Of a stretch of DNA of 38,616 nucleotides, positions 3,742-38,616 are shown in pieces; within the stretch, counting starts at the first letter, position 1, and every line of letters begins with the position of its first letter. The notes beneath the pieces were generated by a model, which saw only the letters and a program-made list of their open reading frames with translations, searched no databases and was not told the origin of the DNA. A program made the translations under genes and the position numbers. Where the stretch lies: assembly GCA_964643895.1 (NCBI GenBank), contig CAZXUE010000006.1, forward strand, positions 5,989 to 44,604, read 5' to 3'. This stretch comes from an uncultured Candidatus Saccharibacteria bacterium. GTDB lineage: Bacteria > Patescibacteriota > Saccharimonadia > Saccharimonadales > UBA7683.

Positions 3742-5013
3742 ATGCATGTCTATTTTTCTGGGATTGGCGGGGTTGGGATTGGCCCACTGGCACTATTAGC
3801 ACTTGATGCTGGGTTCACGGTAAGTGGCTCAGATCTGCAAGCATCCGAACTCACCAAATCACTTGAAGAGCGCGGAGCGAATGTAGTGATTGGTCAAGAC
3901 GGCAAAAATCTAAAGGCAACTCACCTGGAGCAGGCTATTGATTGGTTTGTATACACCTCCGCACTGCCATCCGATCATCCCGAGCTACGCGCGGCAAATG
4001 AACAAGGTATCAAAACCAGCAAGCGGGGGGATTTCTTAAACGATCTTCTTAAACAGCTTAATCTCAAGATGATTGCCGTGGCCGGTACACACGGCAAAAC
4101 CACCACTACCGGTATGTTAATTTGGCTTTTCGAGCAGCTCGATCTACCGGTGAGTTACTCGGTTGGCACCACTCTCTCATTTGGGCCGGCAGCTCAGTAC
4201 CAAAAAGGCTCCGAACACTTCGTATATGAGTGCGATGAGTTCGACCGAAACTTCTTGGAGTTTCATCCTGAGATCAGCCTAATTACTTCTCTCGATTACG
4301 ACCACCCAGACACATACCCTTCTAGGCAAGAATATTTTGATGCGTTTACCCAGTTTAGCGAGCAATCCAAGCTCAGTGTTCTCTGGGAGCAAGATGCCGA
4401 AAAAATTCAATCTGAGGGCAACCTTTTTGTCCTAACTAAACCGCAGGAACTTGGGCAAATTACGCTTGCTGGCGAGCATAATCGTCGTAATGCCTGGTTG
4501 GCCTGCAGCACCATTAACCGCCTGGGACTGGTTGAAAATGACCTCGTAAACTGGAAGATGCTCTTGAAAAAGGTGAGCAGCTTCCCGGGTACTAATCGCC
4601 GTTTTGAAAAGCTGGCCGAAAATATCTACACTGACTACGCGCATCACCCTGCCGAAATTAAGGCTACTTTACAGATGGCAACCGAGCTCAACTCGAATGT
4701 TGTGGCTATCTACCAGCCGCACCAGAACATTCGCCAACGTGAGCTGCTGGAAAATGATGGCTACAGTGATTGCTTCTCAGATGCAAAAAAGGTCTATTGG
4801 CTACCAACTTATTTGAGCCGCGAAAATGGTGCCAAGGTGATTTCACCCCAAGAACTCAGTGCAACCGCAAAAAATACACTGATTGAAATAGCTGATACGA
4901 ACGAACAGCTACGCCAAAAAATCAAGAAACACCAAGAAGATGGTGATCTAATAGTAGCAATGTCCGCTGGTGACTTAGATGCTTGGGTCAGAGAGCAACT
5001 GTACAATAATTGA
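3742..5013 (+). CDS. murC: UDP-N-acetylmuramate--L-alanine ligase (Mur ligase family)
   Basis: N-terminal GIGGVGIGPLA..VSGSD Rossmann motif, P-loop GTHGKTTTTGM, DEFDRNF...DYDHPD, and DYAHHPAEI. I place the start at the internal ATG 3742 (MHVYFSGIGG), which has AAGG upstream. The Mpl paralogue cannot be excluded. Confidence 0.75.
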   Translation: MHVYFSGIGGVGIGPLALLALDAGFTVSGSDLQASELTKSLEERGANVVIGQDGKNLKATHLEQAIDWFVYTSALPSDHPELRAANEQGIKTSKRGDFLNDLLKQLNLKMIAVAGTHGKTTTTGMLIWLFEQLDLPVSYSVGTTLSFGPAAQYQKGSEHFVYECDEFDRNFLEFHPEISLITSLDYDHPDTYPSRQEYFDAFTQFSEQSKLSVLWEQDAEKIQSEGNLFVLTKPQELGQITLAGEHNRRNAWLACSTINRLGLVENDLVNWKMLLKKVSSFPGTNRRFEKLAENIYTDYAHHPAEIKATLQMATELNSNVVAIYQPHQNIRQRELLENDGYSDCFSDAKKVYWLPTYLSRENGAKVISPQELSATAKNTLIEIADTNEQLRQKIKKHQEDGDLIVAMSAGDLDAWVREQLYNN

Positions 5014-5692
5014 TTGGGAGGCCTTCGGCGGTAAATTTTTGTTCATAGTGAGTTTTGATTTTGTATTCATCTGGAAGATTACTTTCGTGAAGATCAAATG
5101 AGAGTTCTTGAAAGTGCCATTTTTCAGCAACGAGCTGCTCTATACTCCAGAGAAACAGTTGACGATTATCAGTTTTGAATTTAAGCAATCCTGTGTCCTT
5201 CAATAATTTGCGATATTGTTGCAAAAATGAAATATGACTTAAACGATGTTTAGCACTCCGCTCTCTCGGAAACGGATCAGGAAAAGTAAGCCAGATTTCA
5301 TCAACACTACGAGGCTCAAACACTTGTTCGAGTTCGTTAAGGTGCATTCTTAAAAACGCAATGTTTTTCACCCTTTCTTCAAGCGCTTTTTTGGCGCTTG
5401 TATATAATCTATCCGATTTAATATCTACTGCTATGAAATCTTTTTCAGGATGTCTTCGCGCCAGCTCCAAGCTAAACTGCGCATTCCCTGCCGCCAACTC
5501 CAATACCAGTGGCCGTGTTTCCAGGGTGGCACCTCGAAAGTGAGGGAAGTGTGTTTTAATTTGCTTTTTTGCAAGATCCGGGCTGCTGCCACGGTTGAAT
5601 GTGAAGCAATTTTTGTAGCTTTCAAAATGTGCAAACTTCCATTTCTTGCGTTTTCGGGTAATATACAGCCCATCACGCGGTAAAGTTTGCAC
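4988..5692 (-). CDS. trmB: tRNA (guanine-N7)-methyltransferase
   Basis: LELAAGNAQFSLELA SAM motif, FIAVDIK, and EIWLTFPDPFPRERSAKHRL, typical of TrmB. The GTG start shares 1 nt with the mazG-like stop (TAGTG). Confidence 0.85.
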   Translation of the reverse strand: MQTLPRDGLYITRKRKKWKFAHFESYKNCFTFNRGSSPDLAKKQIKTHFPHFRGATLETRPLVLELAAGNAQFSLELARRHPEKDFIAVDIKSDRLYTSAKKALEERVKNIAFLRMHLNELEQVFEPRSVDEIWLTFPDPFPRERSAKHRLSHISFLQQYRKLLKDTGLLKFKTDNRQLFLWSIEQLVAEKWHFQELSFDLHESNLPDEYKIKTHYEQKFTAEGLPINYCTVAL

Positions 5693-6033
5693 TAACGATT
5701 ATCTCCGCTACCGTGTCTAACGCCGCGTGATTTTCGACTAAGTACTTTCTCCAGATTTTGCTGCGCTACCGCTTCTAAATCTGACCCGAGCAGTGTTGCC
5801 ACCGAGTTGATATACCAGAGTACATCACCGAGTTCTTTCAGAATTTCTTTTTTGTCATCTACAGAAAGTCTACCAGCTTTATCGCGAATGAGTTTTTTAA
5901 ATTTTTCAGCGACTTCACCGCTCTCTCCAATGAGACCGAAGACCTGAGAAATTAATACTGGTTCAAGGTCCTGCATGTCGTGCCCATCAAGTAGTGTGGT
6001 GATGGCTTGTTTTGAATAGTCGTTTATCGTCAT
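5692..6033 (-). CDS. MazG-like nucleotide pyrophosphohydrolase domain protein
   Basis: 113 aa with an ExxE metal motif (GESGEVAEKFKK) and LGDVLWY, typical of the small MazG family. Confidence 0.8.
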   Translation of the reverse strand: MTINDYSKQAITTLLDGHDMQDLEPVLISQVFGLIGESGEVAEKFKKLIRDKAGRLSVDDKKEILKELGDVLWYINSVATLLGSDLEAVAQQNLEKVLSRKSRGVRHGSGDNR

Positions 6034-6151
6034 GTTTACTCCTTTACGGCTACAACTGGCTGAGCCCCGTTTATTCTATTTAATCCGTACCCTCGATAGT
6101 ACCAGATCGGTCGTCTTAGCTAAAAGCATATGTGCTTTGTTATACTAATGT

Positions 6152-7027
6152 GTGATGAGCACCGAAGCAATTCTTAAGTCATTCCAGACCTGGTCAGTTG
6201 ATCATGGCTGGAAGATTGTTTTAATCCTTATTATAGCCAGCGTTGTGCGCCGTTTTGGTGAAGCATTTTTGCGTAAGTTTATTCATCGCAGCATTCAACA
6301 TTCTGATCGTTTTGAAAACGACCGCGACCGTAAGCTTCGCGCCGATACGCTCATTAGCTTGATTGGCTCTATCATGAAGGTCATTACCTGGATCTTAATT
6401 GCCTTGTTGGTGCTTTCCGAACTTGGCGTGCTCAAAGTTTTGGCGCCTATTTTAGCTGGCGCGCTGGCAGTCGGCGGTGTACTAAGCTTGTTGCTTGGAT
6501 TTGGTATTCAAACTTTTGTAAAGGATTTTATCAGCGGCATCTTTATTGTCGTGGAAAATCAGTACCGTGTAGGCGATGTGGTTTCTCTGACTGCTACTGG
6601 CGGGGATGTGGAGGGAACAGTTATTCGTATTACGCTCAGAACAACAGTACTTCGCGATAACGACGGAGCCATTCACTTCGTGCCAAATGGCAACATTAAT
6701 CGTGCGGCTAATCAAACTCTTGACTACGCTAAGGTAAACGTTGAACTAACATTGCCGCTTGAGGCTGATTTTGACAAAGCTGAACGGGAGATTGCCGCGC
6801 TCGGTCTTGCAATGGGACAAGAAGAGTTGTGGCAGAGTTCAATGGTGCAGGCTCCGTATTATCACGGTGTTCAAACGTTTGATAAAGATCATGTTACTGT
6901 TGAGGTGCGCGCCAAAACTATTCCCGCAGAGCAGTGGCGAGTTTCTTCGGAACTACAAAAGCGTTTAGCAAAACTGGTCAGTGATGCAGACTTCTTCGTG
7001 TCTAAGAAGAAGCCTGATAAAAAGTGA
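6152..7027 (+). CDS. small-conductance mechanosensitive channel (MscS family)
   Basis: Three TM helices followed by VGDVVSL...GTVIRITLRTTVLRDNDGAIHFVPNGNI, the MscS beta-domain signature. The start is GTG 6152 or ATG 6155, directly behind a TATACT -10-like hexamer. Confidence 0.85.
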   Translation: MMSTEAILKSFQTWSVDHGWKIVLILIIASVVRRFGEAFLRKFIHRSIQHSDRFENDRDRKLRADTLISLIGSIMKVITWILIALLVLSELGVLKVLAPILAGALAVGGVLSLLLGFGIQTFVKDFISGIFIVVENQYRVGDVVSLTATGGDVEGTVIRITLRTTVLRDNDGAIHFVPNGNINRAANQTLDYAKVNVELTLPLEADFDKAEREIAALGLAMGQEELWQSSMVQAPYYHGVQTFDKDHVTVEVRAKTIPAEQWRVSSELQKRLAKLVSDADFFVSKKKPDKK

Positions 7028-7169
7028 TTGGAACTAAGCATATGGCGTAACGCCACCGCTTTCTATTCCATCGCCTCGAGCTTGTCGAAAGATCTAGCTT
7101 CACTAGAGACAAGATCGCTGATCTCTCTCCCATAGTCGAGGTAACAGCCTTACTCTGAGGTCTACCAAG

Positions 7170-7544
7170 CTACAACGAGGGCTGATCAGGAGGCGTAAGT
7201 TGTAAGGCTTGATCGCTCAGATCATTTGCGTCAAATCTGCTTAAGCCGCTCAGCGCTTTTAATTCTTCTTCAAGGTACTGAATCTTGCGCTTTGTTGCCG
7301 GGGCATCAACCGGACTGCTAGTATCGGCCCCATCATCTGCGATGCCCAATGCCTGATTCCGATGTGCTGAACCGCCACGTTCAATATCATACTTACGGTT
7401 TGGGCTATTCCAATACAGCACATACGCGACCCCGACGATCATACTGGCAGCTGCAATCGCAATAGCAAGGGCGCTTACTAAATTGAGTTGGGGCGGCCAG
7501 AAGCGACGTACCTCCTGATCTGTCTGAGGCAGGTGCTCACTCAC
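7170..7544 (-). CDS. hypothetical membrane-anchored protein
   Basis: 124-aa ORF with one TM segment (LVSALAIAIAAASMIVGVAYVLYW). Its start overlaps the upstream gene's stop by 4 nt. Confidence 0.6.
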   Translation of the reverse strand: MSEHLPQTDQEVRRFWPPQLNLVSALAIAIAAASMIVGVAYVLYWNSPNRKYDIERGGSAHRNQALGIADDGADTSSPVDAPATKRKIQYLEEELKALSGLSRFDANDLSDQALQLTPPDQPSL

Positions 7545-23542: not shown

Positions 23543-24193
23543 TTATTGCAAGATTGCTTGCACCGCCCTGATCACTGGGGTTCGTGCGTTTTTGGTAAAG
23601 TCGTGATTGGCAGGAAGTGTTATTGCTTTTGAGGGTACGATGTTGAAATGGGTTTCGCCTAAAATTTCGTCATTTGCGGCCGTAATAATCGTGAGTTTAC
23701 TCATTTGAGCGAGTGCCTGATAGCATTCCATCGCATCAATACTACCCAGGCTTGACCAGTACTGCGCTGGGATGATCGTAGTGCTTCCATCTCTTCTTGT
23801 TACTTTTGAGATAGCCTTAAAGTTGATAGTGCTGTTCGGTCGATTGCGAAACAGGTCCGCAAATTGGTCAATATCGGTATTGTCGGGCGGAGCAAGAAAG
23901 ATAATACTGCGCACACCTCTTGGGTTGGCAAGTGCTGCCGCTAAGCAGCCCTGCGAATGGCAAATGAGATCAACGGTTTCATATTTTGTACGAGCGAGCC
24001 TTATCTGTTCGCTTAATAGGCCCGCCTGTTGATTGAGCGTTGCAGCGGTGAGCGTGTTCTCTTCAATATTTATCTGATTATAGTCAAATTGTACGTGCTC
24101 AAAACTAGGTAGGGCTTCGGCGATATCAGTGAATAATCCCCTGTCATCCTTTTGAACACCAAATCCGTGTGAATAAATTATCGCTTGCATCAC
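23543..24193 (-). CDS. alpha/beta hydrolase fold protein
   Basis: Nucleophile-elbow-like CHSQGC, the N-terminal oxyanion region YSHGFG, and about 216 aa. The substrate is unknown. Confidence 0.6.
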   Translation of the reverse strand: MMQAIIYSHGFGVQKDDRGLFTDIAEALPSFEHVQFDYNQINIEENTLTAATLNQQAGLLSEQIRLARTKYETVDLICHSQGCLAAALANPRGVRSIIFLAPPDNTDIDQFADLFRNRPNSTINFKAISKVTRRDGSTTIIPAQYWSSLGSIDAMECYQALAQMSKLTIITAANDEILGETHFNIVPSKAITLPANHDFTKNARTPVIRAVQAILQ

Positions 24194-24206
24194 TTTATAT
24201 TCTATC

Positions 24207-25625
24207 TTATTTTCTACCGAAGTAGAGGATGCCCGTGATCATCCAGAAGGCGCAAATGCCGGCAGCGATGGCGGTGAACATTGGCAAACCAATGGTGATA
24301 ATAGCGGGCATGGAAAGGGCGGTAATGATACCACCCCCCACGAAGGGTTCAAACATGAGCTGCTTAAACCCGAAGCTTTCGGCAGCGTTAGTTTTATCAT
24401 TTGGGTCAACCATGTGAAGAAACAGTAAGCCCGTGGCGGTCATGCCCATACTCTGCGCCGCATTAACAATGGCATTTGGGAACCAGTTCTTTTTGAACAT
24501 GTGCCGTGCAAGAACCAGAAATCCAAATAAAATCCAGAGAATGCCGGTAGCGGCCAGCACCAAGAAGATGCCAATATTATTACCTATTGTATTGAGCGAC
24601 ATTGTCGCAACCGCCGTAGCAATCAAAACACTGAGTGCAATGCTGCTCAGTAGCTCCACTAATGGGCGAGAGGTCTGAAGACCAAGTTTTGACCAAATAA
24701 CCTGCGCCACCATACCACCAAACATACAGAACGGGAAGAACGGTACATAGCGCAGCGCTGTTACATCATGTCTTCCCCAAGTGAGATCTTCTATTTTTAG
24801 TAATCCCTGATAAATCAGCCAGCCGAAGAAAACACTCAAACCAATTAAAATAATGTGGCTCACAATCCATTTTGGCGTTAAATGTTCACGAAGCTTGATT
24901 CCCCGCTTGTTGAGCTCATGAATAATACGGCGGTGATAAATGCGCTCGCGCAGATTTGTTTTGTAAACTGCTTTAATGTGCCCGCGACGGCGGCCCCAAT
25001 TAACCATCAGCACTCCACTGATAAGCGCTGTGCATAAACTGAGTGTTGCCAGACCAAGCGCAATTTCCTGCCCATCACGAAAACCAAGATTATTAAAGAC
25101 CGGCGACAAGCCCGAAACTGTACCGTGGCCGCCTTCAAAGCTAATCTCGATTAATGCGGCAGTGATATCGCGTGTTTTAAAGAACGGGATCAATACCAGC
25201 ATGGTTACTAAACCGCCGAGCGCATACTGGCCCCACGCCAACATTTGCCCAAAGGCTACTTGTGGGCCAGCCAACTTCCACATCTTTTTAAGCGGAAAGA
25301 GCGGCCGGGCCAGGAACAAGCAGGCAAACACTACATTAATGAGCTGCTTTGGTAATAGTCTCCAAAATTCATAAAACGTGGCATTTAACTGCCAGTCAGG
25401 AAAATGGTTGCCAGCAATTTGTGGCCCAACCAGCAACAACAAAAAACCGGCCACCAAAGAACCAGGCAAATAGGCGCGGCTAATTAACGGCAAACGAACA
25501 ATCAGATAGCCTGCCATCAAGAATCCCCCGATCACGAGGAGTGAATATGTTTGTGTTGCGATCACAGAGGTAGTATAGCATAAGCGGTTTGATAATTCGT
25601 TGATAGCAGATCGTTTATCGAACAA
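24207..25625 (-). CDS. sodium/glutamate symporter-like (GltS/ESS family) membrane transporter
   Basis: Polytopic protein with two homologous halves. FEGGHGTVSGL resembles the conserved GGHGT of GltS. The start codon is uncertain (TTG at 25625 in the ORF track). Confidence 0.55.
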   Translation of the reverse strand: MFDKRSAINELSNRLCYTTSVIATQTYSLLVIGGFLMAGYLIVRLPLISRAYLPGSLVAGFLLLLVGPQIAGNHFPDWQLNATFYEFWRLLPKQLINVVFACLFLARPLFPLKKMWKLAGPQVAFGQMLAWGQYALGGLVTMLVLIPFFKTRDITAALIEISFEGGHGTVSGLSPVFNNLGFRDGQEIALGLATLSLCTALISGVLMVNWGRRRGHIKAVYKTNLRERIYHRRIIHELNKRGIKLREHLTPKWIVSHIILIGLSVFFGWLIYQGLLKIEDLTWGRHDVTALRYVPFFPFCMFGGMVAQVIWSKLGLQTSRPLVELLSSIALSVLIATAVATMSLNTIGNNIGIFLVLAATGILWILFGFLVLARHMFKKNWFPNAIVNAAQSMGMTATGLLFLHMVDPNDKTNAAESFGFKQLMFEPFVGGGIITALSMPAIITIGLPMFTAIAAGICAFWMITGILYFGRK

Positions 25626-25659
25626 AAACGAACCACGACCACCAACTTACAAACTAGTC

Positions 25660-26259
25660 CTACATATAAAGCTGATGGGAGGCACAGTATTGATACACGG
25701 CATCGGGTAAATCATTTGCGGCTTGTTGAGCAGCAATTACCTCGCGGATCTTTTTTGAGCTAATGTGCGGATGATGATTTTCAATTAAACGAATTGCCGG
25801 TGAGAACCCGAGTGCAGCCAGCTCTTCTAACTTTTCATCAAGCCATGCTTTTGTGTGGTCGTCTCGTAGTGCCACTATAAACCCACCGTATTCATGCTGT
25901 GCAGTGATGGATTGCCACCGCTTCATATGTTCAAAGACATCTGAGCCAACTAAAAACCAAAATTCGTTTTCCTTACCATAATGTGTACGTGCAACAGTTA
26001 GCATGTCTTGCATGGTATGCTGATGCGCCAGCTTATTTGAAAACTCGTAGTCATGGTCGACCTCTGATACACTTTCGGTCGCGCGCTGAATCATGGCCTG
26101 GCGATGGTCCCAGCTGGCAAACGGCTTCTTGCGGTAAGGGTTTTTCTCAGCTACAATTATCACCTTTTCAAGGTCAGATTCCGACACAGCTTTGATCGCA
26201 AACGCAATATGCCCAGTGTGAATGGGGTCAAATGTCCCAGCAAAAATTCCTATCTTCAT
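25660..26259 (-). CDS. nadD: nicotinate-nucleotide adenylyltransferase
   Basis: GIFAGTFDPIHTGHI (HxGH motif) and the C-terminal ISSKKIR (ISSTxIR-like). Its ATG overlaps the upstream gene's stop (ATGA). Confidence 0.85.
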   Translation of the reverse strand: MKIGIFAGTFDPIHTGHIAFAIKAVSESDLEKVIIVAEKNPYRKKPFASWDHRQAMIQRATESVSEVDHDYEFSNKLAHQHTMQDMLTVARTHYGKENEFWFLVGSDVFEHMKRWQSITAQHEYGGFIVALRDDHTKAWLDEKLEELAALGFSPAIRLIENHHPHISSKKIREVIAAQQAANDLPDAVYQYCASHQLYM

Positions 26260-27785
26260 AAGACTATTTTCTCATGCTCAGCTGATTTTGTCTTATCGTC
26301 ATTCTTGCCAACTACTTGTTTTTTGTTTGACCCAAACGGCCACTGGAGAAACGCTGTAGCTTTTTTGGTCACCTTTTTACCCACTTTACGCATTCTTTTA
26401 TATGTAGTTGACGGATTTCGACCATGATCAAATTCGTGTTGACAGCCACGGCACACACTGCAAGGGCCAACATCAGTCCTGCCTGGACGAGTTGGACAAG
26501 CATTAACTCGACAAACCCCCTTAGACCACCGCCAGCTCTCTTTACCGAGCTTCAATAGCTTCGTCATTGGATCGACTTCTACTCCCATTTTTTGTGTTTC
26601 TTCAGCTGAAATGCTCATACCGCAGAATGAGACCGATTCTTCCAAAACACGGTTAGAGTCGAGTACCGCGGAAGCACCAGCATAATCTCCGGCAGCCGTT
26701 AGGTCACTGGCTCTCATAAAACCAACTGCAGCTTTTTCACCAAAACACCCTACTGCATATGAAGGGTCCATCACACAAATTGCTCTTAAAATATTTGCAA
26801 CTTCCTGCTTAAACTGCGTCTGATATTGCTTCTCGGTGATCAAGCCCTCATTTTTTAAGCTATCGAGGCGTTCGGTAAAGTCAGCCAATTGCTCAACGTA
26901 GCACTGTGCGACACGCTCACGCTCCGCAGATTCACGTTGCAAATCTCCGTACTCGCTTTGCTCAGCATGAGCCTGTTCACCGTATCGTATTCTTGCACCA
27001 TGATGCTGATCAAGTCGCTTTAGTAACCCCAGAACACCTTGGCTCATTTCGTGCATAAGCTGCGTGCCAAGCACCGATACATCAGCATGTTGGGCAGAAC
27101 GTAGATTTACTCCTGCTCCTATAAGAAAGTCGGATGAGCGGACTGCATCACTATTGCTGCGGCTCACCTGCTGTGAGATACGCGTAAATGTACCATCACA
27201 ATTATTTCGTAACCGGCTGCTGCGTAACATACCCTTCTTGTTTGATGGCCGGTAGCCTATAAGCTCGGCTGAGTTTTCGCTTATTGCCCCTTCGGCAATA
27301 AAGTCGGAGATGGTTGCAACCTCAAGGGTATCAGGCAACTCTCCTTCGGCAATTTTCAGCTCTACCGCCTGTATGGTGAGCTCCTCGCAGATCTCCATAA
27401 AGCGCCGACGCTGTTCGTGTGCCGGTAATCTATCGCTATATGCATTTAGGAGTACTGAGAGCATAGTTTGATGAATTTCATCAAGACTGCCTGTTGTTTC
27501 TACAACTGAAAGATGGCCAGAAGCGGTAAGCGCCTCAAATAATAACGTGCGGGCGTCATCGAGATAGGTTTTATGAGATTTGTATGAAGTTTCAATACGT
27601 GTATGATTTTCTATCAATTCATGGGCTTGCCGCTCTATCTGCACACGATCAAACAAATCATCCGCCCCAATTAACGGCTCCACTAGTTCAAAATTAGCGG
27701 CAATTTCAGCAAACGCTGCCGCTTCATTTTGCGGGAGCTTAAACTCATCCGTACCCACCCGGTCTGTTGTTAGTACCCTCTCCAC
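26256..27785 (-). CDS. hypothetical cytosolic protein with C-terminal Cys-rich zinc-ribbon-like motif and Lys-rich tail
   Basis: 509-aa ORF with a GTG start 7 nt after GGAG. It has no signal peptide or TM segment. The C-terminus reads CRVNACPTRPGRTDVGPCSVCRGCQHEF followed by KRMRKVGKKVTKK. No family recognised. Confidence 0.75.
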   Translation of the reverse strand: MERVLTTDRVGTDEFKLPQNEAAAFAEIAANFELVEPLIGADDLFDRVQIERQAHELIENHTRIETSYKSHKTYLDDARTLLFEALTASGHLSVVETTGSLDEIHQTMLSVLLNAYSDRLPAHEQRRRFMEICEELTIQAVELKIAEGELPDTLEVATISDFIAEGAISENSAELIGYRPSNKKGMLRSSRLRNNCDGTFTRISQQVSRSNSDAVRSSDFLIGAGVNLRSAQHADVSVLGTQLMHEMSQGVLGLLKRLDQHHGARIRYGEQAHAEQSEYGDLQRESAERERVAQCYVEQLADFTERLDSLKNEGLITEKQYQTQFKQEVANILRAICVMDPSYAVGCFGEKAAVGFMRASDLTAAGDYAGASAVLDSNRVLEESVSFCGMSISAEETQKMGVEVDPMTKLLKLGKESWRWSKGVCRVNACPTRPGRTDVGPCSVCRGCQHEFDHGRNPSTTYKRMRKVGKKVTKKATAFLQWPFGSNKKQVVGKNDDKTKSAEHEKIVL

Positions 27786-27960
27786 TAAAAAACTCCTGCT
27801 GTTGGTGTTATACCGTGCAGGAGTTATAAAAAGACAAACCCTTATTTTTTGACTTTTTGTTTTCTCCTGCTCGGGAGACCTTACAAGGCTTTAAGCGTAT
27901 CGGACTTTAACCGTTGCGGCACAGCGTTGGATTTTCACCAAACTTCCGCTTTAAACCAAG
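27786..27960 (-). promoter_or_regulatory. cobalamin (B12) riboswitch-like leader, compact form
   Basis: Aptamer at 27887-27957 (minus strand): GGUUUAAAGC-GGAAGUUUGGUGAAAAUCCAACGCUGUGCCGCAACGGUUAAAGUCCGAUAC-GCUUAAAGCC. By eye it matches the B12 core (GGAAG, GGUGAAAAUCC, and the B12-box-like GCCGCAACGG). A 10-position P1 helix closes it, and an antiterminator/terminator switch follows. Confidence 0.65.
27787..27825 (-). terminator. intrinsic terminator / SD-sequestering hairpin (expression platform of the leader)
   Basis: Minus-strand RNA AACUCCUGC-(17-nt loop)-GCAGGAGUU followed by UUUUA and then the GTG start. The GGAG SD sits in the 3' arm. Confidence 0.7.
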
Positions 27961-27981: not shown

Positions 27982-28010
27982 ATTGTACGCTTGGCATAGC
28001 GTAGACGCAA
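27982..28010 (-). promoter_or_regulatory. sigma70-like promoter for the riboswitch-led operon
   Basis: On the minus strand, TTGCGT (28010-28005), a 17-nt spacer, then TACAAT (27987-27982), about 25 nt upstream of the aptamer P1. Confidence 0.55.
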
Positions 28011-28066: not shown

Positions 28067-28414
28067 GTGAGCATGGCTACAAAAAAGAAGAACCCCATGG
28101 CACTGACACAAAAAGCTCGTAAAATCATGAGGGGTGATATCACCCGAAGCGTGGCAATCACCTCAATACTCTTGAATGTATTATTCTTGATTAGTATTTT
28201 CGTGATTACCAGTACTGACACATTTGATCGCCGTGTCTATATATCGGCTCGCGATCGCTACTGTGCCAACAATGTGGCTACCGAAGAACGAGCACAAGAA
28301 CTCGGTGATAGCAGCGCAGCTGTACGCGAACGACAGATTGACTGTATTGGCCCAGATTTCCGACCGTTTTACAAAGAGGCGGTTGATAAATACCGAGCGC
28401 AGACCGCTCAGTAA
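28067..28414 (+). CDS. hypothetical membrane-anchored protein
   Basis: 115-aa ORF with one TM segment (ITSILLNVLFLISIFVI). The start is GTG 28067 or ATG 28073. Confidence 0.6.
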   Translation: MSMATKKKNPMALTQKARKIMRGDITRSVAITSILLNVLFLISIFVITSTDTFDRRVYISARDRYCANNVATEERAQELGDSSAAVRERQIDCIGPDFRPFYKEAVDKYRAQTAQ

Positions 28415-28432: not shown

Positions 28433-28882
28433 TTACTTTTTGCGTGATCTTATTTTTTCGTGGATATCCCGAAATTGACCTTGGAGTTCATCAAGTTCTG
28501 CATCGGTCAAGTCTTCAACATCGACAAATTCAGAACGCGCACTCCGGCTTGCATTGATTAGTTCATCAAGTTTGAGCTGCATGGCCCGGCCATCACGGTT
28601 TTGCGTATTTTGAATTACAAACACCATCAAAAAAGTGACGATGGTGGTGCCAGTATTAATAACCAGCTGCCAAGTATTTGAAAAGCTGAAAATTGGACCA
28701 GAAACACCCCATACTAAAATAGCGAGAACAGCGATATAAAAAGCAGTCGCACTCCCAAGCTTATTAGATATTTTTACTGAAACTTTATGAAAGGAATCTG
28801 CCTTAGATCTTGGCTTCTTTTTCGCATCAGCATCATGATGACGAACAACAAGTACTTTTAGGCGCTTGAGCTTTGTTTCCAT
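28433..28882 (-). CDS. low-affinity iron permease family protein
   Basis: FSNTWQLVINTGTTIVTFLMVFVIQNTQNRDGRAMQLKLDELI matches the conserved core of the low-affinity iron permease (Fet4-like bacterial) family as I recall it. Confidence 0.7.
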   Translation of the reverse strand: METKLKRLKVLVVRHHDADAKKKPRSKADSFHKVSVKISNKLGSATAFYIAVLAILVWGVSGPIFSFSNTWQLVINTGTTIVTFLMVFVIQNTQNRDGRAMQLKLDELINASRSARSEFVDVEDLTDAELDELQGQFRDIHEKIRSRKK

Positions 28883-35879: not shown

Positions 35880-36380
35880 ATGGGCGAAATAATTAATGCC
35901 GTGTCAGATTTTGTGAAAGATTATGGAGGTTTGGGCTGGGTAATTGCCGCCGCAGCCCTAGCCTTCACCGTATTTCAGTTTTTATACAAGCGTAGGACTG
36001 GCGGAGTGAAACTTGACGTAACCTTTTCAAATGGCGTCCTGACGTACCCAAACGGTGAGCTGAGCGATCCGATGATATTCCTAAAAATCGCTAATACCGG
36101 TGGCAAAAAAGTTGTACTATGTAGCGTTTCGTTAAATATAAAAAGTAAACCCGCCAGCAGTGTTATTAATGGATATGGCCATCTGCAGCAGATGCCATAC
36201 GTTTTAGAGCCAGGCTACGACTATCAGGTTTGGTATGAACTTCTTCCTATAGCTAAGAATTTAAAGAAGAATGGACAATCGGGCAAGATTGCTATTCATG
36301 GTGAGTATTCCACGCAGGCAAATGGAAGATTTAAAGCCAAAAAGCCTTATAGGCTTGACGTTGATGGATGGACTAAATAG
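35880..36380 (+). CDS. hypothetical membrane-anchored protein
   Basis: 166-aa ORF with an N-terminal TM segment (GLGWVIAAAALAFTVFQFL) and a beta-rich C-terminal domain. Its 3' end overlaps the convergent gene by 8 nt. Confidence 0.55.
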   Translation: MGEIINAVSDFVKDYGGLGWVIAAAALAFTVFQFLYKRRTGGVKLDVTFSNGVLTYPNGELSDPMIFLKIANTGGKKVVLCSVSLNIKSKPASSVINGYGHLQQMPYVLEPGYDYQVWYELLPIAKNLKKNGQSGKIAIHGEYSTQANGRFKAKKPYRLDVDGWTK

Positions 36381-37587
36381 TAGACTTCAGCTTCACCAGA
36401 ATTTTACTCATTATTTCCGAGAAATGTTCATAATCAAAATCAACACTCATTAACGGGAGCCAAATTGTCCCACCGTTTTTGCCAGGGACGTGCATGATAT
36501 TTCGAGCAATAACTTTATAGTTATTTTTTATACGTGCCATTTCAAAGGCCATTGCCCTGTGTGCATCGTACATTTCCTGAGGTACTAGACGCGCTAACTG
36601 TGTCCAATCCATTTGTTTATCGACTATGGCATTTATTTCGATATCAGTGAGTGGCGTCTTTATCTCTTCAACCAAAGGCGTTTGCCGCATATCCCCTTCA
36701 TGCGCGATGAAATTACGGCGCTTTTTTAGAAATGCCATCCAGTGATTAATTTTCTTCACGGAAAGTTTTCTTGCAAGACCTGTACGTTTTTCCTTATTCC
36801 TTTTAATGAAGGTCGCTTTCTCTAGCCCTAGATCGCTATATTTATCACGAGGTATCTTCAATTTAAGAAAGTCGTTCAAAAGCCTCGCCATAGAGTCTAA
36901 GGCGCCAGCAAGCAAAAAATAATAGTTACTAATGTGATAGTTCAGCTCCAAGTTGTAAGTGTCGTCATCGCCGATGCCAGATCGCTCGGCTTTGCGAAGT
37001 CTTTTTACGTAATATTGTAGTAAATCCCTAGCATAATCAATCTGCTTAATCTTGTTTACTATGTATCGAATACGGTCAATCTGTTCACTGGTATACTTTG
37101 AGCTTCTTTGGCACTCCACCATGTAATTATAATAATCTTGACAGAGACCTGGCTGCTCCATGTAGCGTAATAGCGGCTGCATATTCCAGACAGGTTCACG
37201 TAATCTCCACGCGACACCGCTGCCTACTAAGAAATTTTCGATCGAATAAACAAGCTCTTCAATTGTTTGTACAATCTCAACCTTATAGAAGTTTTTGTTT
37301 GTGAATTTATCTGAATATGACCCGTCGAGATCTAATATTACATCAAGATCGTCTGAACCAATCTTTGCTAATAGGTTTTCCTCGCTTAGCGGACTATTAA
37401 ATTGCACCGATACTTTGAGGTTTGATCTTCCAATGTCAGATAGATATGTGTGTAAAATATCAATTTGCCCAAGAAGTTCAGCCAGGTCTGGGTTTGAGGC
37501 ATCTCCCAAAATTAAGACCTTCAAAGTATTAAACTGATGCAATATCGGTCTAAGCTCAGGGTAGATTACTCCATTTACCATCGGCAT
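36373..37587 (-). CDS. hypothetical protein with C-terminal HEPN-like Rx4H motif and N-terminal alpha/beta (Rossmann/TIR-like) module
   Basis: KKRRNFIAHEG (RNFIAH encoded at 36700-36717) is preceded by the helix NYHISNYYFLLAGALDSMARLL. The N-terminus has beta-alpha-beta strands (KVLILGD, KVSVQF, DVILDLDG). ATG 37587 lies 4 nt after the upstream TAG; the ORF track uses TTG 37599. The gene is AT-rich. Confidence 0.6.
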   Translation of the reverse strand: MPMVNGVIYPELRPILHQFNTLKVLILGDASNPDLAELLGQIDILHTYLSDIGRSNLKVSVQFNSPLSEENLLAKIGSDDLDVILDLDGSYSDKFTNKNFYKVEIVQTIEELVYSIENFLVGSGVAWRLREPVWNMQPLLRYMEQPGLCQDYYNYMVECQRSSKYTSEQIDRIRYIVNKIKQIDYARDLLQYYVKRLRKAERSGIGDDDTYNLELNYHISNYYFLLAGALDSMARLLNDFLKLKIPRDKYSDLGLEKATFIKRNKEKRTGLARKLSVKKINHWMAFLKKRRNFIAHEGDMRQTPLVEEIKTPLTDIEINAIVDKQMDWTQLARLVPQEMYDAHRAMAFEMARIKNNYKVIARNIMHVPGKNGGTIWLPLMSVDFDYEHFSEIMSKILVKLKSTI

Positions 37588-37591
37588 TGCG

Positions 37592-38616
37592 CTAAACAAC
37601 TTTCCCGGATGCTTCCTTTAGTTCCCTAAATATCTCAACCATTGCCCAAGTATCCATCTTGCAGTATTCAGTTAGGTCTGCGAGTATCTGATCCTTCTGG
37701 TCGGCTCGTGTTTCATCAAGCACCGCCTCCATCCAAAGTCGCTGGGCTGAGTTGCCGTCTTGAATACCAAGGTCTTTGTAGCTTAGCTCAGGGCACACTA
37801 CAGGCAGTACCTTTTTGATACTCGCGCTTCCCTCGCAGCGCGGATCGTCATACCATTTAGCCTTAAATGGGATCATGAGGTCGACGACACGCTCGTTAAT
37901 GGCCTTAATCTGCTCAGTATATTCCGGATACATCCGCCCCAGCTCTTCGTTTACCGATTTTTCAAAGCGCATATTCCAGGTAATAATTGAGCCGGAATCA
38001 CCCATGTCTGCTACTAGCTGCTTGGCTAAGTCTGGCGCTGGATTAGTGTTATCTTTGTGAAGATACTCTCTATGTTCTACTTCACCACCCGGTTCACGGA
38101 TGATATGCAGAGAATATTGAAACGGTACTTGCTGGTACGGTCGCTGGCCGTTGAAATATGGCACAAGGCCCTGCATCGTTTCATAGTCAAAAAAGTAGAG
38201 TGGATATTGTAGTTCACCCAAAAATCGTTCGATCTCTTGCTTGTTGATTTCGGCACGAGTATCTTCAGGCCAGATTTTAGGCTCGGGCGGAAATATATTT
38301 TCGTAAACCTTCATCCATTCAGATTTTGAACCAAGCTTAGCCAGTTCCGGATTTGGATCAGGCATTTCTGCTTGCGCGGCAGCTTTCTTTGCTGTTTCCA
38401 TGTATTCTGGAGTCTTTAAAGCAACTTCATTTACCTCATCGGTCACATCAGCAAACGTTGTTAGTTCTTTTGGGTTGACTTCACCCACCCGTACAGACTG
38501 ATTATTTACATGAATCACTGATATGTTTCGGACTGTAAAGCCATTTCCCTCAAGCACGGTCTTTTGGAACGCAAGATCGTATAGGTGATCGGGCTTAACG
38601 CGTGTGCTGGATTTAA
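37592..38616 (-). CDS. DUF2779-type protein: DEDD (DnaQ-like) exonuclease module plus the end of a PD-(D/E)xK nuclease module (5' end outside the window)
   Basis: The frame stays open upstream of the track start to the window edge (KSSTRVKPDHLYDLAFQKTVLEG...). YFFDYETM (DxE), PFQYSLH, ITWNMRFEKSV and YCKMDTWAMVEIF resemble Exo I-III motifs and the DUF2779 signature as I recall it. Confidence 0.65.
   Translation of the reverse strand, partial: KSSTRVKPDHLYDLAFQKTVLEGNGFTVRNISVIHVNNQSVRVGEVNPKELTTFADVTDEVNEVALKTPEYMETAKKAAAQAEMPDPNPELAKLGSKSEWMKVYENIFPPEPKIWPEDTRAEINKQEIERFLGELQYPLYFFDYETMQGLVPYFNGQRPYQQVPFQYSLHIIREPGGEVEHREYLHKDNTNPAPDLAKQLVADMGDSGSIITWNMRFEKSVNEELGRMYPEYTEQIKAINERVVDLMIPFKAKWYDDPRCEGSASIKKVLPVVCPELSYKDLGIQDGNSAQRLWMEAVLDETRADQKDQILADLTEYCKMDTWAMVEIFRELKEASGKVV

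What the first reader, a model, noticed from the sequence alone, without database searches (positions are those of the whole stretch)
26256..27785. Unrecognisable 509-aa zinc-ribbon protein as first gene of the B12-leader operon, translationally coupled to nadD
Genes behind cobalamin riboswitches are normally B12 transport or biosynthesis genes, or B12-independent isozymes. This ORF has none of those signatures by eye. It has no TM segment and no signal peptide and appears largely helical. Its C-terminus is the Cys cluster CRVNAC...CSVCRGC followed by a Lys-rich tail that looks suited to nucleic-acid binding. Its TGA overlaps the nadD ATG (ATGA at 26256-26259). The GltS-like transporter and an alpha/beta hydrolase follow with gaps of 35 and 14 nt. 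One possible link is that NadD consumes NaMN, which is also the phosphoribosyl donor used by CobT in cobamide lower-ligand activation. That link is pure inference. The protein may represent an undescribed B12-responsive function.
Basis: inference. Interest (0 to 1): 0.62.

Follow-up and report, generated by a model that had tools for sequence, protein, structure and literature searches.

The report
Orphan B12-riboswitch-controlled protein of Saccharibacteria
The 509-aa gene is real and belongs to a protein family with no known relatives or matching fold; it occurs only in Saccharibacteria and sits behind a vitamin-B12 riboswitch in every locus examined, so it is a strong candidate for an undescribed B12-related function in these tiny symbiotic bacteria.

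Summary
Window 26256-27785 (-) is a 509-aa ORF with a GTG start and an AGGAG Shine-Dalgarno 7 nt upstream. It lies behind a cobalamin aptamer (Rfam AdoCbl-II, 43.1 bits, above the 36.5-bit threshold) and a terminator hairpin that also buries the ribosome-binding site. Its TGA overlaps the nadD ATG.

The protein ("X509") matches nothing in Pfam, NCBIfam, PADLOC, PHROGs or PDB sequences. Two confident AlphaFold models (pLDDT 90 and 94) have no Foldseek match in the PDB or in viral structures. Its homologues (88 by word search, 477 clusters by profile) come from Saccharibacteria-type contigs.

A cobalamin aptamer lies directly upstream of the gene in all 35 loci that keep upstream DNA, down to about 20% protein identity. 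It appears nowhere else in about 420 kb, except before a B12-uptake-like gene pair.

nadD follows in most loci, usually overlapping or within 12 nt. In two lineages the riboswitch-X509 unit sits between a glutaredoxin and the BtuR/CobA adenosyltransferase. In another it sits next to DUF4430+DUF6580 genes that carry their own aptamer.

Best reading: a B12-repressed cytoplasmic factor for corrinoid salvage or handling. The function is inferred at about 0.4 confidence; the regulation is firm. The CobT/NaMN idea is untested, and the Lys-rich tail is not conserved.

The parts
27982..28010 (-). Possible promoter of the leader transcript (TTGCGT, 17-nt spacer, TACAAT)
   Evidence: Read from the sequence. 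It is too weak for the consensus scan. Inference only.
27886..27958 (-). Cobalamin riboswitch aptamer (short form that lacks the peripheral extension present in other loci)
   Evidence: Rfam RF01689, 43.1 bits against a 36.5-bit threshold. My own covariance model scores 93 bits. Covariation across 34 distinct homologous aptamers: 95% of cells paired, 8 of 13 pairs with compensatory changes, 0 of 500 shuffles as good.
27864..27877 (-). Small hairpin CUCCCGAGCAGGAG after the aptamer. Its position suggests it is the regulatory (P13-like) hairpin of cobalamin riboswitches. It carries the first copy of GCAGGAG.
   Evidence: Conserved as TCCCGAGCAGGA(G) in most loci. Its four pairs covary. It folds as a hairpin.
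27787..27825 (-). Intrinsic terminator that also sequesters the ribosome-binding site: AACUCCUGC, 17-nt loop, GCAGGAGUU, then a U-run. The 3' arm contains the AGGAG of the gene.
   Evidence: Minimum-free-energy fold of -27 kcal/mol, z = -2.3; sequence. ACUCCUGC can instead pair with the upstream GCAGGAG (27870-27864), giving an anti-terminator. The OFF-switch logic is inferred.
26256..27785 (-). X509: orphan 509-aa protein. Alpha/beta N-terminal domain (about residues 36-275), helical bundle (about 279-381), invariant Cys-Gly hairpin (C388), C-terminal zinc ribbon (C425, C430, C442, C445, plus C448) and a variable basic tail.
   Evidence: No family or fold match.
25660..26259 (-). nadD-like nicotinate/nicotinamide-mononucleotide adenylyltransferase. 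Its start overlaps the X509 stop (ATGA).
   Evidence: PF01467, E=2.6e-18. TIGR00482 scores 107.1 bits, just under the 112.45-bit cutoff. Overlap verified. It follows X509 in most loci. An RNA contig spans the junction.
24207..25625 (-). ESS/GltS-family membrane transporter with about 10 TM segments. Start codon uncertain; probably 25565-25517.
   Evidence: Homologues are named 'ESS family glutamate:Na+ symporter' and some carry PF03616. TM scan. Present only in L001, L002 and the window.
23543..24193 (-). Small alpha/beta (serine) hydrolase
   Evidence: Ser_hydrolase PF06821 scores 23.3 bits against a 22-bit cutoff. Found only in L002 and the window.

Best explanation
X509 is the founding member of a protein family found only in Saccharibacteria (class Saccharimonadia) that is the conserved target of a cobalamin OFF-riboswitch.

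How the switch works (inferred). When B12 is bound, the small hairpin after the aptamer stays closed. The segment ACUCCUGC then pairs with the GCAGGAG that carries the ribosome-binding site, forming a terminator with a U-run, so X509 and the translationally coupled nadD are not made. When B12 is scarce, ACUCCUGC pairs with the upstream GCAGGAG, transcription reads through and the ribosome-binding site is free.

The protein. It is soluble and cytoplasmic. It has an alpha/beta domain of undetected fold that carries the invariant polar residues (E84, H91, E124, R127, E131, Y178, K184, R188, S208, S210, D259, Y279). This is followed by a helical bundle, an invariant Cys-Gly hairpin (C388) and a Cys4 zinc ribbon.

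Most likely role (inferred, not shown). It is a B12-starvation-induced step in corrinoid salvage or handling. It would bind or chemically process imported cobalamin, for example by thiol-dependent reduction or removal of the upper ligand. It would act upstream of, or alongside, the CobA/BtuR adenosyltransferase that these bacteria carry.

nadD is co-transcribed in most lineages, but it is probably an operon passenger rather than the reason for the B12 control.
For: Shown:
- Rfam calls the aptamer in the window, and the terminator / ribosome-binding-site hairpin folds as described.
- Rfam calls or near-calls aptamers in 15 loci.
- A covariance model built on those finds an aptamer directly upstream of X509 in every remaining locus, E<=2.4e-9. 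It also finds one in L039.
- There is no other hit in about 420 kb, except before the DUF4430+DUF6580 pair in L018.
- Covariation supports the aptamer helices.
- The linkage holds in a subfamily only about 20% identical to the window protein (L028, L029).
- Metatranscriptome contigs run from the aptamer into X509 and across the X509/nadD junction.

Context linking X509 to B12 use:
- L020 and L039 read glutaredoxin, riboswitch, X509, BtuR/CobA (PF02572, E=3.5e-52), with gaps of 10-14 nt between X509 and BtuR.
- The usual Saccharibacteria arrangement is glutaredoxin then BtuR, with no riboswitch.
- In L018 the unit lies directly after a second aptamer that controls DUF4430 (a transcobalamin-like domain, from my own knowledge) and DUF6580.
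- BtuR is widespread in Saccharibacteria, so these bacteria use adenosylcobalamin and X509 is not the adenosyltransferase itself.
- In the loci where nadD is absent (L012, L013, L018, L020, L034, L039), the riboswitch stays with X509.
Against: - No biochemical or structural similarity to any corrinoid-binding or corrinoid-processing protein was found.
- Function rests on gene context in three lineages plus the regulation.
- BtuR itself is usually not riboswitch-controlled, so a dedicated BtuR partner that is B12-repressed is not an obvious design.
- The tight, often overlapping pairing with nadD in most of the loci examined is left unexplained.
- The glutaredoxin neighbour would fit a ribonucleotide-reductase-related role equally well.
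- I could not check which B12-dependent enzymes these genomes encode.
Confidence: 0.42

Rival explanations
1. X509 is a B12-independent replacement for a B12-dependent enzyme. It would be switched on only when cobalamin is lacking, as metE or nrdAB/nrdDG are in other bacteria.
For: Universal OFF-type riboswitch control of one soluble protein is the classic pattern for such isozymes (established knowledge; aptamer data). The glutaredoxin neighbour in L020 and L039 could be a reductant for a reductase. Invariant E, H, D and C residues could form a catalytic metal or thiol site.
Against: No similarity to the MetE/UROD barrels or to the ribonucleotide-reductase barrel, and only 11% strand. No radical-generating partner is encoded nearby. 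The very fast divergence, down to 20% identity within one class and undetectable by BLASTP between L020 and L039 although their BtuR proteins are 85% identical, is unusual for a core metabolic enzyme. Sharing an operon with the B12 adenosyltransferase fits salvage better.
Confidence: 0.2
2. X509 works with NadD in pyridine-nucleotide metabolism. It could be a non-homologous enzyme that makes NaMN or NMN, or one that uses NaAD or NAD. The pair is under B12 control for a physiological reason such as B12 acting as a proxy for host contact, or a link to lower-ligand chemistry.
For: X509 is followed by nadD, overlapping or within 12 nt, in most loci, down to 25% identity. The ATGA overlap in the window is confirmed. 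A transcript contig spans the junction. The conserved Ser/Arg/Lys/Glu face on a beta-hairpin could bind a nucleotide (inference).
Against: The riboswitch follows X509, not nadD, wherever the two are separated (L012, L013, L018, L020, L034, L039). The whole block (KefB, DsbA-like, CorC, AspS) is conserved synteny of unrelated genes, so adjacency alone is weak evidence. RNA contig depth over nadD (11-16) exceeds that over X509 (0-7), which hints at a separate promoter (a poor measure). No fold match to any known NAD-pathway enzyme.
Confidence: 0.15
3. X509 is a zinc-ribbon regulator or nucleic-acid-binding factor, rather than an enzyme or cofactor handler.
For: C-terminal Cys4 zinc ribbon with weak eS27-like profile hits. 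Basic tail, about 22% K+R in the last 50 residues across homologues.
Against: The tail is not conserved in sequence or length and is missing in many members. The strongest conservation is in the alpha/beta domain, not the ribbon. No DNA- or RNA-binding domain was detected.
Confidence: 0.07

Closest known systems
Cobalamin riboswitch regulons (btuB/btuFCD, ECF-CbrT, metE, nrd genes behind Rfam clan CL00101 aptamers)
   Same: Same regulatory element and the same OFF logic: an aptamer, a regulatory hairpin, and a terminator that masks the ribosome-binding site. As with those targets, the gene is tied to the aptamer across a whole lineage.
   Different: The regulated protein belongs to none of the known target families (transport, biosynthesis, adenosyltransferase, B12-independent isozymes). 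nadD has not, to my knowledge, been described as part of a B12-controlled operon.
PduS-PduO and FldA-CobA(BtuR): cobalamin reductase plus adenosyltransferase pairs. Also the CblC (MMACHC) processing enzyme.
   Same: Proposed working analogy only: a cytoplasmic protein that prepares imported cobalamin for the adenosyltransferase. X509 sits directly before BtuR, and after a glutaredoxin, in L020 and L039.
   Different: No sequence or fold similarity. No flavin-binding or Fe-S domain was recognised. Nothing about the chemistry has been tested.
Lineage-specific accessory B12 proteins (DUF4430 / transcobalamin-like binders, BtuG, BtuM)
   Same: Fast-evolving, lineage-restricted proteins of the B12 regulon. 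In L018, X509 lies next to a DUF4430+DUF6580 pair that has its own aptamer.
   Different: Those proteins are surface or membrane proteins. X509 has no signal peptide or TM segment and carries a zinc ribbon.

Membership tests
Cobalamin riboswitch (Rfam clan CL00101) | Match to a curated covariance model at or above its gathering score | tested here: met
   RF01689 scores 43.1 bits against 36.5 in the window. Also above threshold in L002, L015, L017, L018, L021, L022, L030 and L034.
Cobalamin riboswitch (Rfam clan CL00101) | Conserved core and helices supported by covariation | tested here: met
   The core CTGTGCCGCAAC[GT]GT is invariant or one mismatch off. 95.4% of cells are paired, 8 of 13 pairs show double changes, and 0 of 500 shuffles do as well.
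Cobalamin riboswitch (Rfam clan CL00101) | Expression platform able to switch the downstream gene | tested here: met
   Terminator hairpin plus U-run containing the AGGAG, with an alternative pairing to an upstream GCAGGAG. The direction of switching is inferred.
Cobalamin riboswitch (Rfam clan CL00101) | Binds a corrinoid; which form it prefers | not testable with these tools
   Needs in-line probing or ITC.
Known B12-regulon protein families (CobA/BtuR, PduO, CobT/U/S, CbiZ, MetE, ribonucleotide reductases, BtuF, CbrT) - for X509 | Significant profile or fold match | tested here: not met
   No Pfam or NCBIfam hit for the window protein or consistently among 60 homologues. One isolated PF01923 hit at E=0.013 in 1 of 60 is noise. 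No PDB sequence or fold match.
Zinc ribbon (C-terminal module of X509) | Two Cys knuckles on short beta-hairpins | tested here: met
   C425/C430 and C442/C445, replaced by CPxC...C..C in distant members. Model strands at 421-423 and 437-439. Weak eS27-like hits. Metal content untested.
NadD (nicotinate-nucleotide adenylyltransferase) - for the downstream gene | Cytidylyltransferase-like fold with the HxGH motif, and an equivalog-level score | tested here: inconclusive
   PF01467, E=2.6e-18. The GTFDPIHTGH motif is present. TIGR00482 scores 107.1 bits, below the 112.45-bit cutoff, in the window; the L017 orthologue passes at 115.4.
ESS/GltS glutamate:Na+ symporter - for the 472-aa membrane protein | Match to Pfam PF03616 | tested here: inconclusive
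   The window protein gives no hit even at E<=5. Close homologues carry PF03616 or the JGI name 'ESS family glutamate:Na+ symporter'.

The most novel reading that the evidence does not exclude
X509 is a new-fold enzyme or cofactor chaperone that carries out a step of vitamin-B12 handling not yet described in any organism. One candidate is a thiol/glutaredoxin-driven cobalamin reductase or dealkylase that feeds CobA/BtuR. Alternatively it is an entirely new B12-independent bypass enzyme. Either way it would be unique to Saccharibacteria.
Probability: 0.35. Interest if true: 0.85.

Novelty: categorically new. Interest (0 to 1): 0.72.

Why it matters
Saccharibacteria are ultrasmall epibionts with minimal genomes, and how they obtain and use cofactors is largely unknown.

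Here one orphan gene is the invariant target of their cobalamin riboswitch. An RNA sensor of known ligand points directly at a protein of unknown function and undetected fold. That makes the question "what else is needed to use B12?" testable with a single purified protein and a single aptamer.

If it is a salvage or processing factor, it adds a new component to corrinoid trafficking. If it is a bypass enzyme, it is a new B12-independent activity.

It also shows that nadD, a core NAD gene, sits in a B12-controlled operon across a whole bacterial class. I could not find this described in the literature I searched.

The regulatory element itself is an ordinary cobalamin riboswitch; the novelty lies in the protein and its linkage.

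Tried and rejected
Searches that found nothing for X509:
- Pfam, NCBIfam, PADLOC and PHROGs scans of X509 and distant relatives.
- PDB sequence and profile searches with three alignments; only zinc-ribbon noise.
- Foldseek of the full model against the PDB and BFVD, and of the N-terminal domain model against the PDB. No match at E<=1e-3, best query TM-score 0.23. Scattered Bet v 1/START-like and class D beta-lactamase hits at probability <0.3 were judged meaningless.
- tblastn against the plasmid and phage collections.
- Literature searches on Saccharibacteria or Patescibacteria with cobalamin, riboswitch, ribonucleotide reductase, DUF6580 or DUF4430 gave nothing relevant.

Ideas rejected:
- X509 as the adenosyltransferase: BtuR is present, and in L020 and L039 it is adjacent.
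- X509 as a ribonucleotide reductase, MetE, PncB or NadV: no barrel or phosphoribosyltransferase fold.
- X509 as an ADP-ribosyltransferase-like CobT analogue using NaAD: an attractive way to tie in nadD, but there is no fold support and no cobS.
- The 472-aa transporter as a new B12 transporter: it is an ESS/GltS family member, common in Saccharibacteria, and only locally inserted here.
- The 218-aa protein between glutaredoxin and BtuR in L040 as an X509 relative (hhalign probability 0.2%).

Technical failure: a scan for distant relatives with a 17-sequence alignment failed because no stretch was conserved enough. The narrower alignment returned only four loci.
Full report
**1. Observation.**
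Window 26256..27785 (-) is a 509-aa ORF that starts at a GTG. An AGGAG lies 7 nt upstream of it. Its TGA overlaps the ATG of a 199-aa nadD-like gene at 25660..26259, as CTT ATGA AGA.

Rfam places a cobalamin aptamer (RF01689) at 27958..27886 (-). It scores 43.1 bits against a gathering score of 36.5, and it is the only Rfam hit in the window.

Between the aptamer and the start codon the RNA folds into two elements:
- a small hairpin, CUCCCGAGCAGGAG (27877-27864);
- a 9-bp hairpin, AACUCCUGC...GCAGGAGUU (27825-27791), followed by a U-run. Its 3' arm contains the Shine-Dalgarno sequence.

ACUCCUGC can also pair with the upstream GCAGGAG. This gives the usual anti-terminator / terminator choice of an OFF switch. 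That logic is inferred from the sequence.

X509 has no TM-like segment.

Downstream lie two more genes on the same strand:
- A membrane protein with about 10 TM segments. Its homologues are ESS/GltS glutamate:Na+ symporters of 436-452 aa, so the 472-aa TTG start is probably too long.
- A small serine hydrolase.

**2. The protein has no known relatives.**
- Pfam, NCBIfam, PADLOC and PHROGs give nothing.
- Scanning all 60 aligned homologues against Pfam gives no recurrent family.
- PDB sequence and profile searches return only noise, or weak eS27-type zinc-ribbon hits for the C-terminus.
- AlphaFold2 with a 60-sequence alignment gives a confident model (pLDDT 90.3, pTM 0.85).
- The N-terminal domain alone (residues 36-275) gives pLDDT 93.9 and pTM 0.91.
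- Foldseek finds no match at E<=1e-3 in the PDB or BFVD for either model. The best query-normalised TM-score is 0.23.

So the fold is undetected among solved structures. AlphaFold DB could not be searched.

The model has four parts:
- an alpha/beta domain;
- a helical bundle (about residues 279-381);
- a beta-hairpin carrying an invariant Cys-Gly (C388);
- a Cys4 ribbon.

Residues invariant within the family are T80, E84, G90, S93, E124, R127, E131, S160, G177, Y178, N182, K184, G185, M186, R188, S208, S210, S286, G349, C388, G389, C442 and C445. Across relatives of about 20% identity, E84, G90, D259, Y279, C388 and two ribbon Cys remain. The Lys-rich tail varies in length and sequence.

**3. 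Distribution.**
A word-indexed search finds 88 homologues. All are unnamed or 'hypothetical', and the source names point to Saccharibacteria / Saccharimonadales. A few other labels are attached to loci that show the same gene order. A full profile search of 1.84 billion representatives finds 477 clusters at E<=1e-3. Distant members also lack Pfam domains. Runs holding the window sequence are wastewater, activated-sludge and river metagenomes.

**4. The riboswitch linkage is universal.**
- At gathering score, Rfam calls an aptamer before the gene in only some loci.
- The aptamer core, GGAA-hairpin-CTGTGCCGCAAC[GT]GT, is nevertheless present 100-250 nt upstream in nearly all of them.
- The two loci without that exact core (L031, L035) have an RF01482-type aptamer (E=2e-4 and 7e-4).
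- I built a covariance model from 15 Rfam-supported aptamers. It finds an aptamer directly upstream of the gene in every locus not used to build it, at E<=2.4e-9. It also finds one in L039.
- Over about 420 kb on both strands there are only two additional hits: a second aptamer in L018 before a DUF4430+DUF6580 pair, and a weak possible tandem copy in L009.

In all, 35 of 35 loci with upstream DNA have the aptamer (about 33 non-redundant, window included). Three loci (L023, L026, L027) are cut too close to the gene to judge.

The helices covary: 95.4% of cells are paired, 8 of 13 pairs show compensatory changes, and 0 of 500 shuffles do as well. The linkage also holds for a subfamily only about 20% identical to the window protein (L028, L029).

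**5. Gene context.**
nadD-like genes follow X509 in most loci, usually overlapping or within 12 nt. A convergent KefB-type antiporter follows them. One of the nadD orthologues passes the TIGR00482 cutoff.

The wider block is conserved synteny of unrelated housekeeping genes: Wzy, GtrA, a LexA-like gene and UppP on one side, and KefB, a DsbA-like gene, CorC and AspS/AsnS on the other. Adjacency alone is therefore weak evidence for a shared function.

The informative exceptions are these:
- L020 and L039 read glutaredoxin, riboswitch, X509, BtuR/CobA adenosyltransferase (PF02572, E=3.5e-52), with 10-14 nt between X509 and BtuR.
- The L039 protein is so diverged that only profile comparison recognises it (hhalign probability 86%, E=5e-6; C-terminal BLASTP E=5e-6). 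Yet its BtuR is 85% identical to that of L020.
- Elsewhere in Saccharibacteria, glutaredoxin and BtuR are adjacent without any riboswitch. In that lineage, the riboswitch-X509 module therefore sits exactly at the locus of the B12 adenosyltransferase.
- In L018 the module follows a separately riboswitch-controlled pair. One member is DUF4430 (a transcobalamin-like domain, from my own knowledge). The other is the membrane protein DUF6580.
- Wherever nadD is not adjacent (L012, L013, L018, L020, L034, L039), the aptamer stays with X509.

**6. Transcription.**
Contigs from two wastewater metatranscriptomes cover four stretches:
- 27397-27934, from the aptamer into X509;
- 25813-26581, across the X509/nadD junction;
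- 25225-25842, across the nadD/transporter junction;
- 23745-24335, across the transporter/hydrolase junction.

This is consistent with read-through and co-transcription. Contig depth is 0-7 over X509 and 11-16 over nadD and the transporter. That hints at an internal promoter, but contig depth is a poor measure and DNA carry-over cannot be excluded.

**7. Interpretation.**
- Firm: X509 is a real, conserved, lineage-restricted protein whose expression is governed by a cobalamin riboswitch throughout its family.
- Inferred, at about 0.4 confidence: it acts in corrinoid salvage or handling, upstream of or alongside BtuR.

The inference rests on three points. The riboswitch follows X509 rather than nadD. 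The gene context links it to BtuR, a glutaredoxin and a B12-uptake-like pair. And its fast, lineage-specific evolution resembles accessory B12 proteins more than core enzymes.

It is not the adenosyltransferase, because BtuR is widespread in these bacteria.

Rival explanations are a B12-independent bypass enzyme (0.2), an NAD-pathway partner of NadD (0.15) and a zinc-ribbon regulator (0.07).

No cobT, cobS or cobU gene was seen in any locus.

**8. Novelty.**
The riboswitch is an ordinary member of a known class. The protein is not assignable to any known family or solved fold. No paper in the searchable library mentions it or a Saccharibacteria cobalamin riboswitch. I therefore rate the protein and its linkage as categorically new, with the function still open.

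Noticed in passing
L018:4464-5766: Two cobalamin aptamers lie 1.2 kb apart. The first (4464-4606) precedes DUF4430 (4693-5094) and the membrane protein DUF6580 (5067-5645), a likely B12-uptake pair. The second (5644-5766) precedes X509.
   Followed up: partly
L009:5588-5862: Possible tandem aptamers before X509: 5588-5684 (54.5 bits) and a weaker second match at 5773-5862 (27 bits, E=3e-4).
   Followed up: no
C-termini of X509 homologues (P0001-P0088): 25 of 88 homologues end in Ala-Ala after a variable basic linker (..KHEKIAA, ..EDSTIKAA, ..RMAA). This is far more than chance and is reminiscent of an ssrA-like C-terminal degron or a docking peptide. The window protein ends in ..EHEKIVL.
   Followed up: partly
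L032:6983-7107, L033:412-536, L018:5683, L020:5719: Public gene calls and longest ORFs for X509 homologues often start inside or upstream of the riboswitch. Several database entries therefore carry false N-terminal extensions (lengths 550-630 aa).
   Followed up: partly
L002:6001-7502: The closest genome relative (86% identity) has X509 split into two ORFs (6001-7104 and 7140-7502). This is a frameshift or stop in the MAG, or a pseudogene.
   Followed up: no
L037/L038:7705-8555, L040:7002-8570: In Saccharibacteria a glutaredoxin gene sits just upstream of the CobA/BtuR adenosyltransferase, with no riboswitch. L040 has an unannotated 218-aa gene between them.
   Followed up: partly
window 28433-28882; L018, L026, L030, L031, L032, L034: The neighbourhood of X509 is rich in metal-ion transport genes: low-affinity iron permease PF04120, Nramp, ZIP, VIT1, TerC/DUF475, a P-type ATPase and CorC/CNNM.
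   Followed up: no
window 28067-28414 (+): A 115-aa ORF with one hydrophobic segment is transcribed divergently from the riboswitch. It is conserved at the same position in L001-L004 and matches no family.
   Followed up: no
window 36373-38557 (-): A HEPN (Cthe_2314-like) protein lies next to a DUF2779 protein. This could be a defence or toxin module.
   Followed up: no
window 24207-25625 (-): The start of the GltS/ESS-family transporter is uncertain (homologues are 436-452 aa, against 472 aa for the longest ORF). Its metatranscriptome contig depth is higher than that of X509, which suggests its own promoter.
   Followed up: partly
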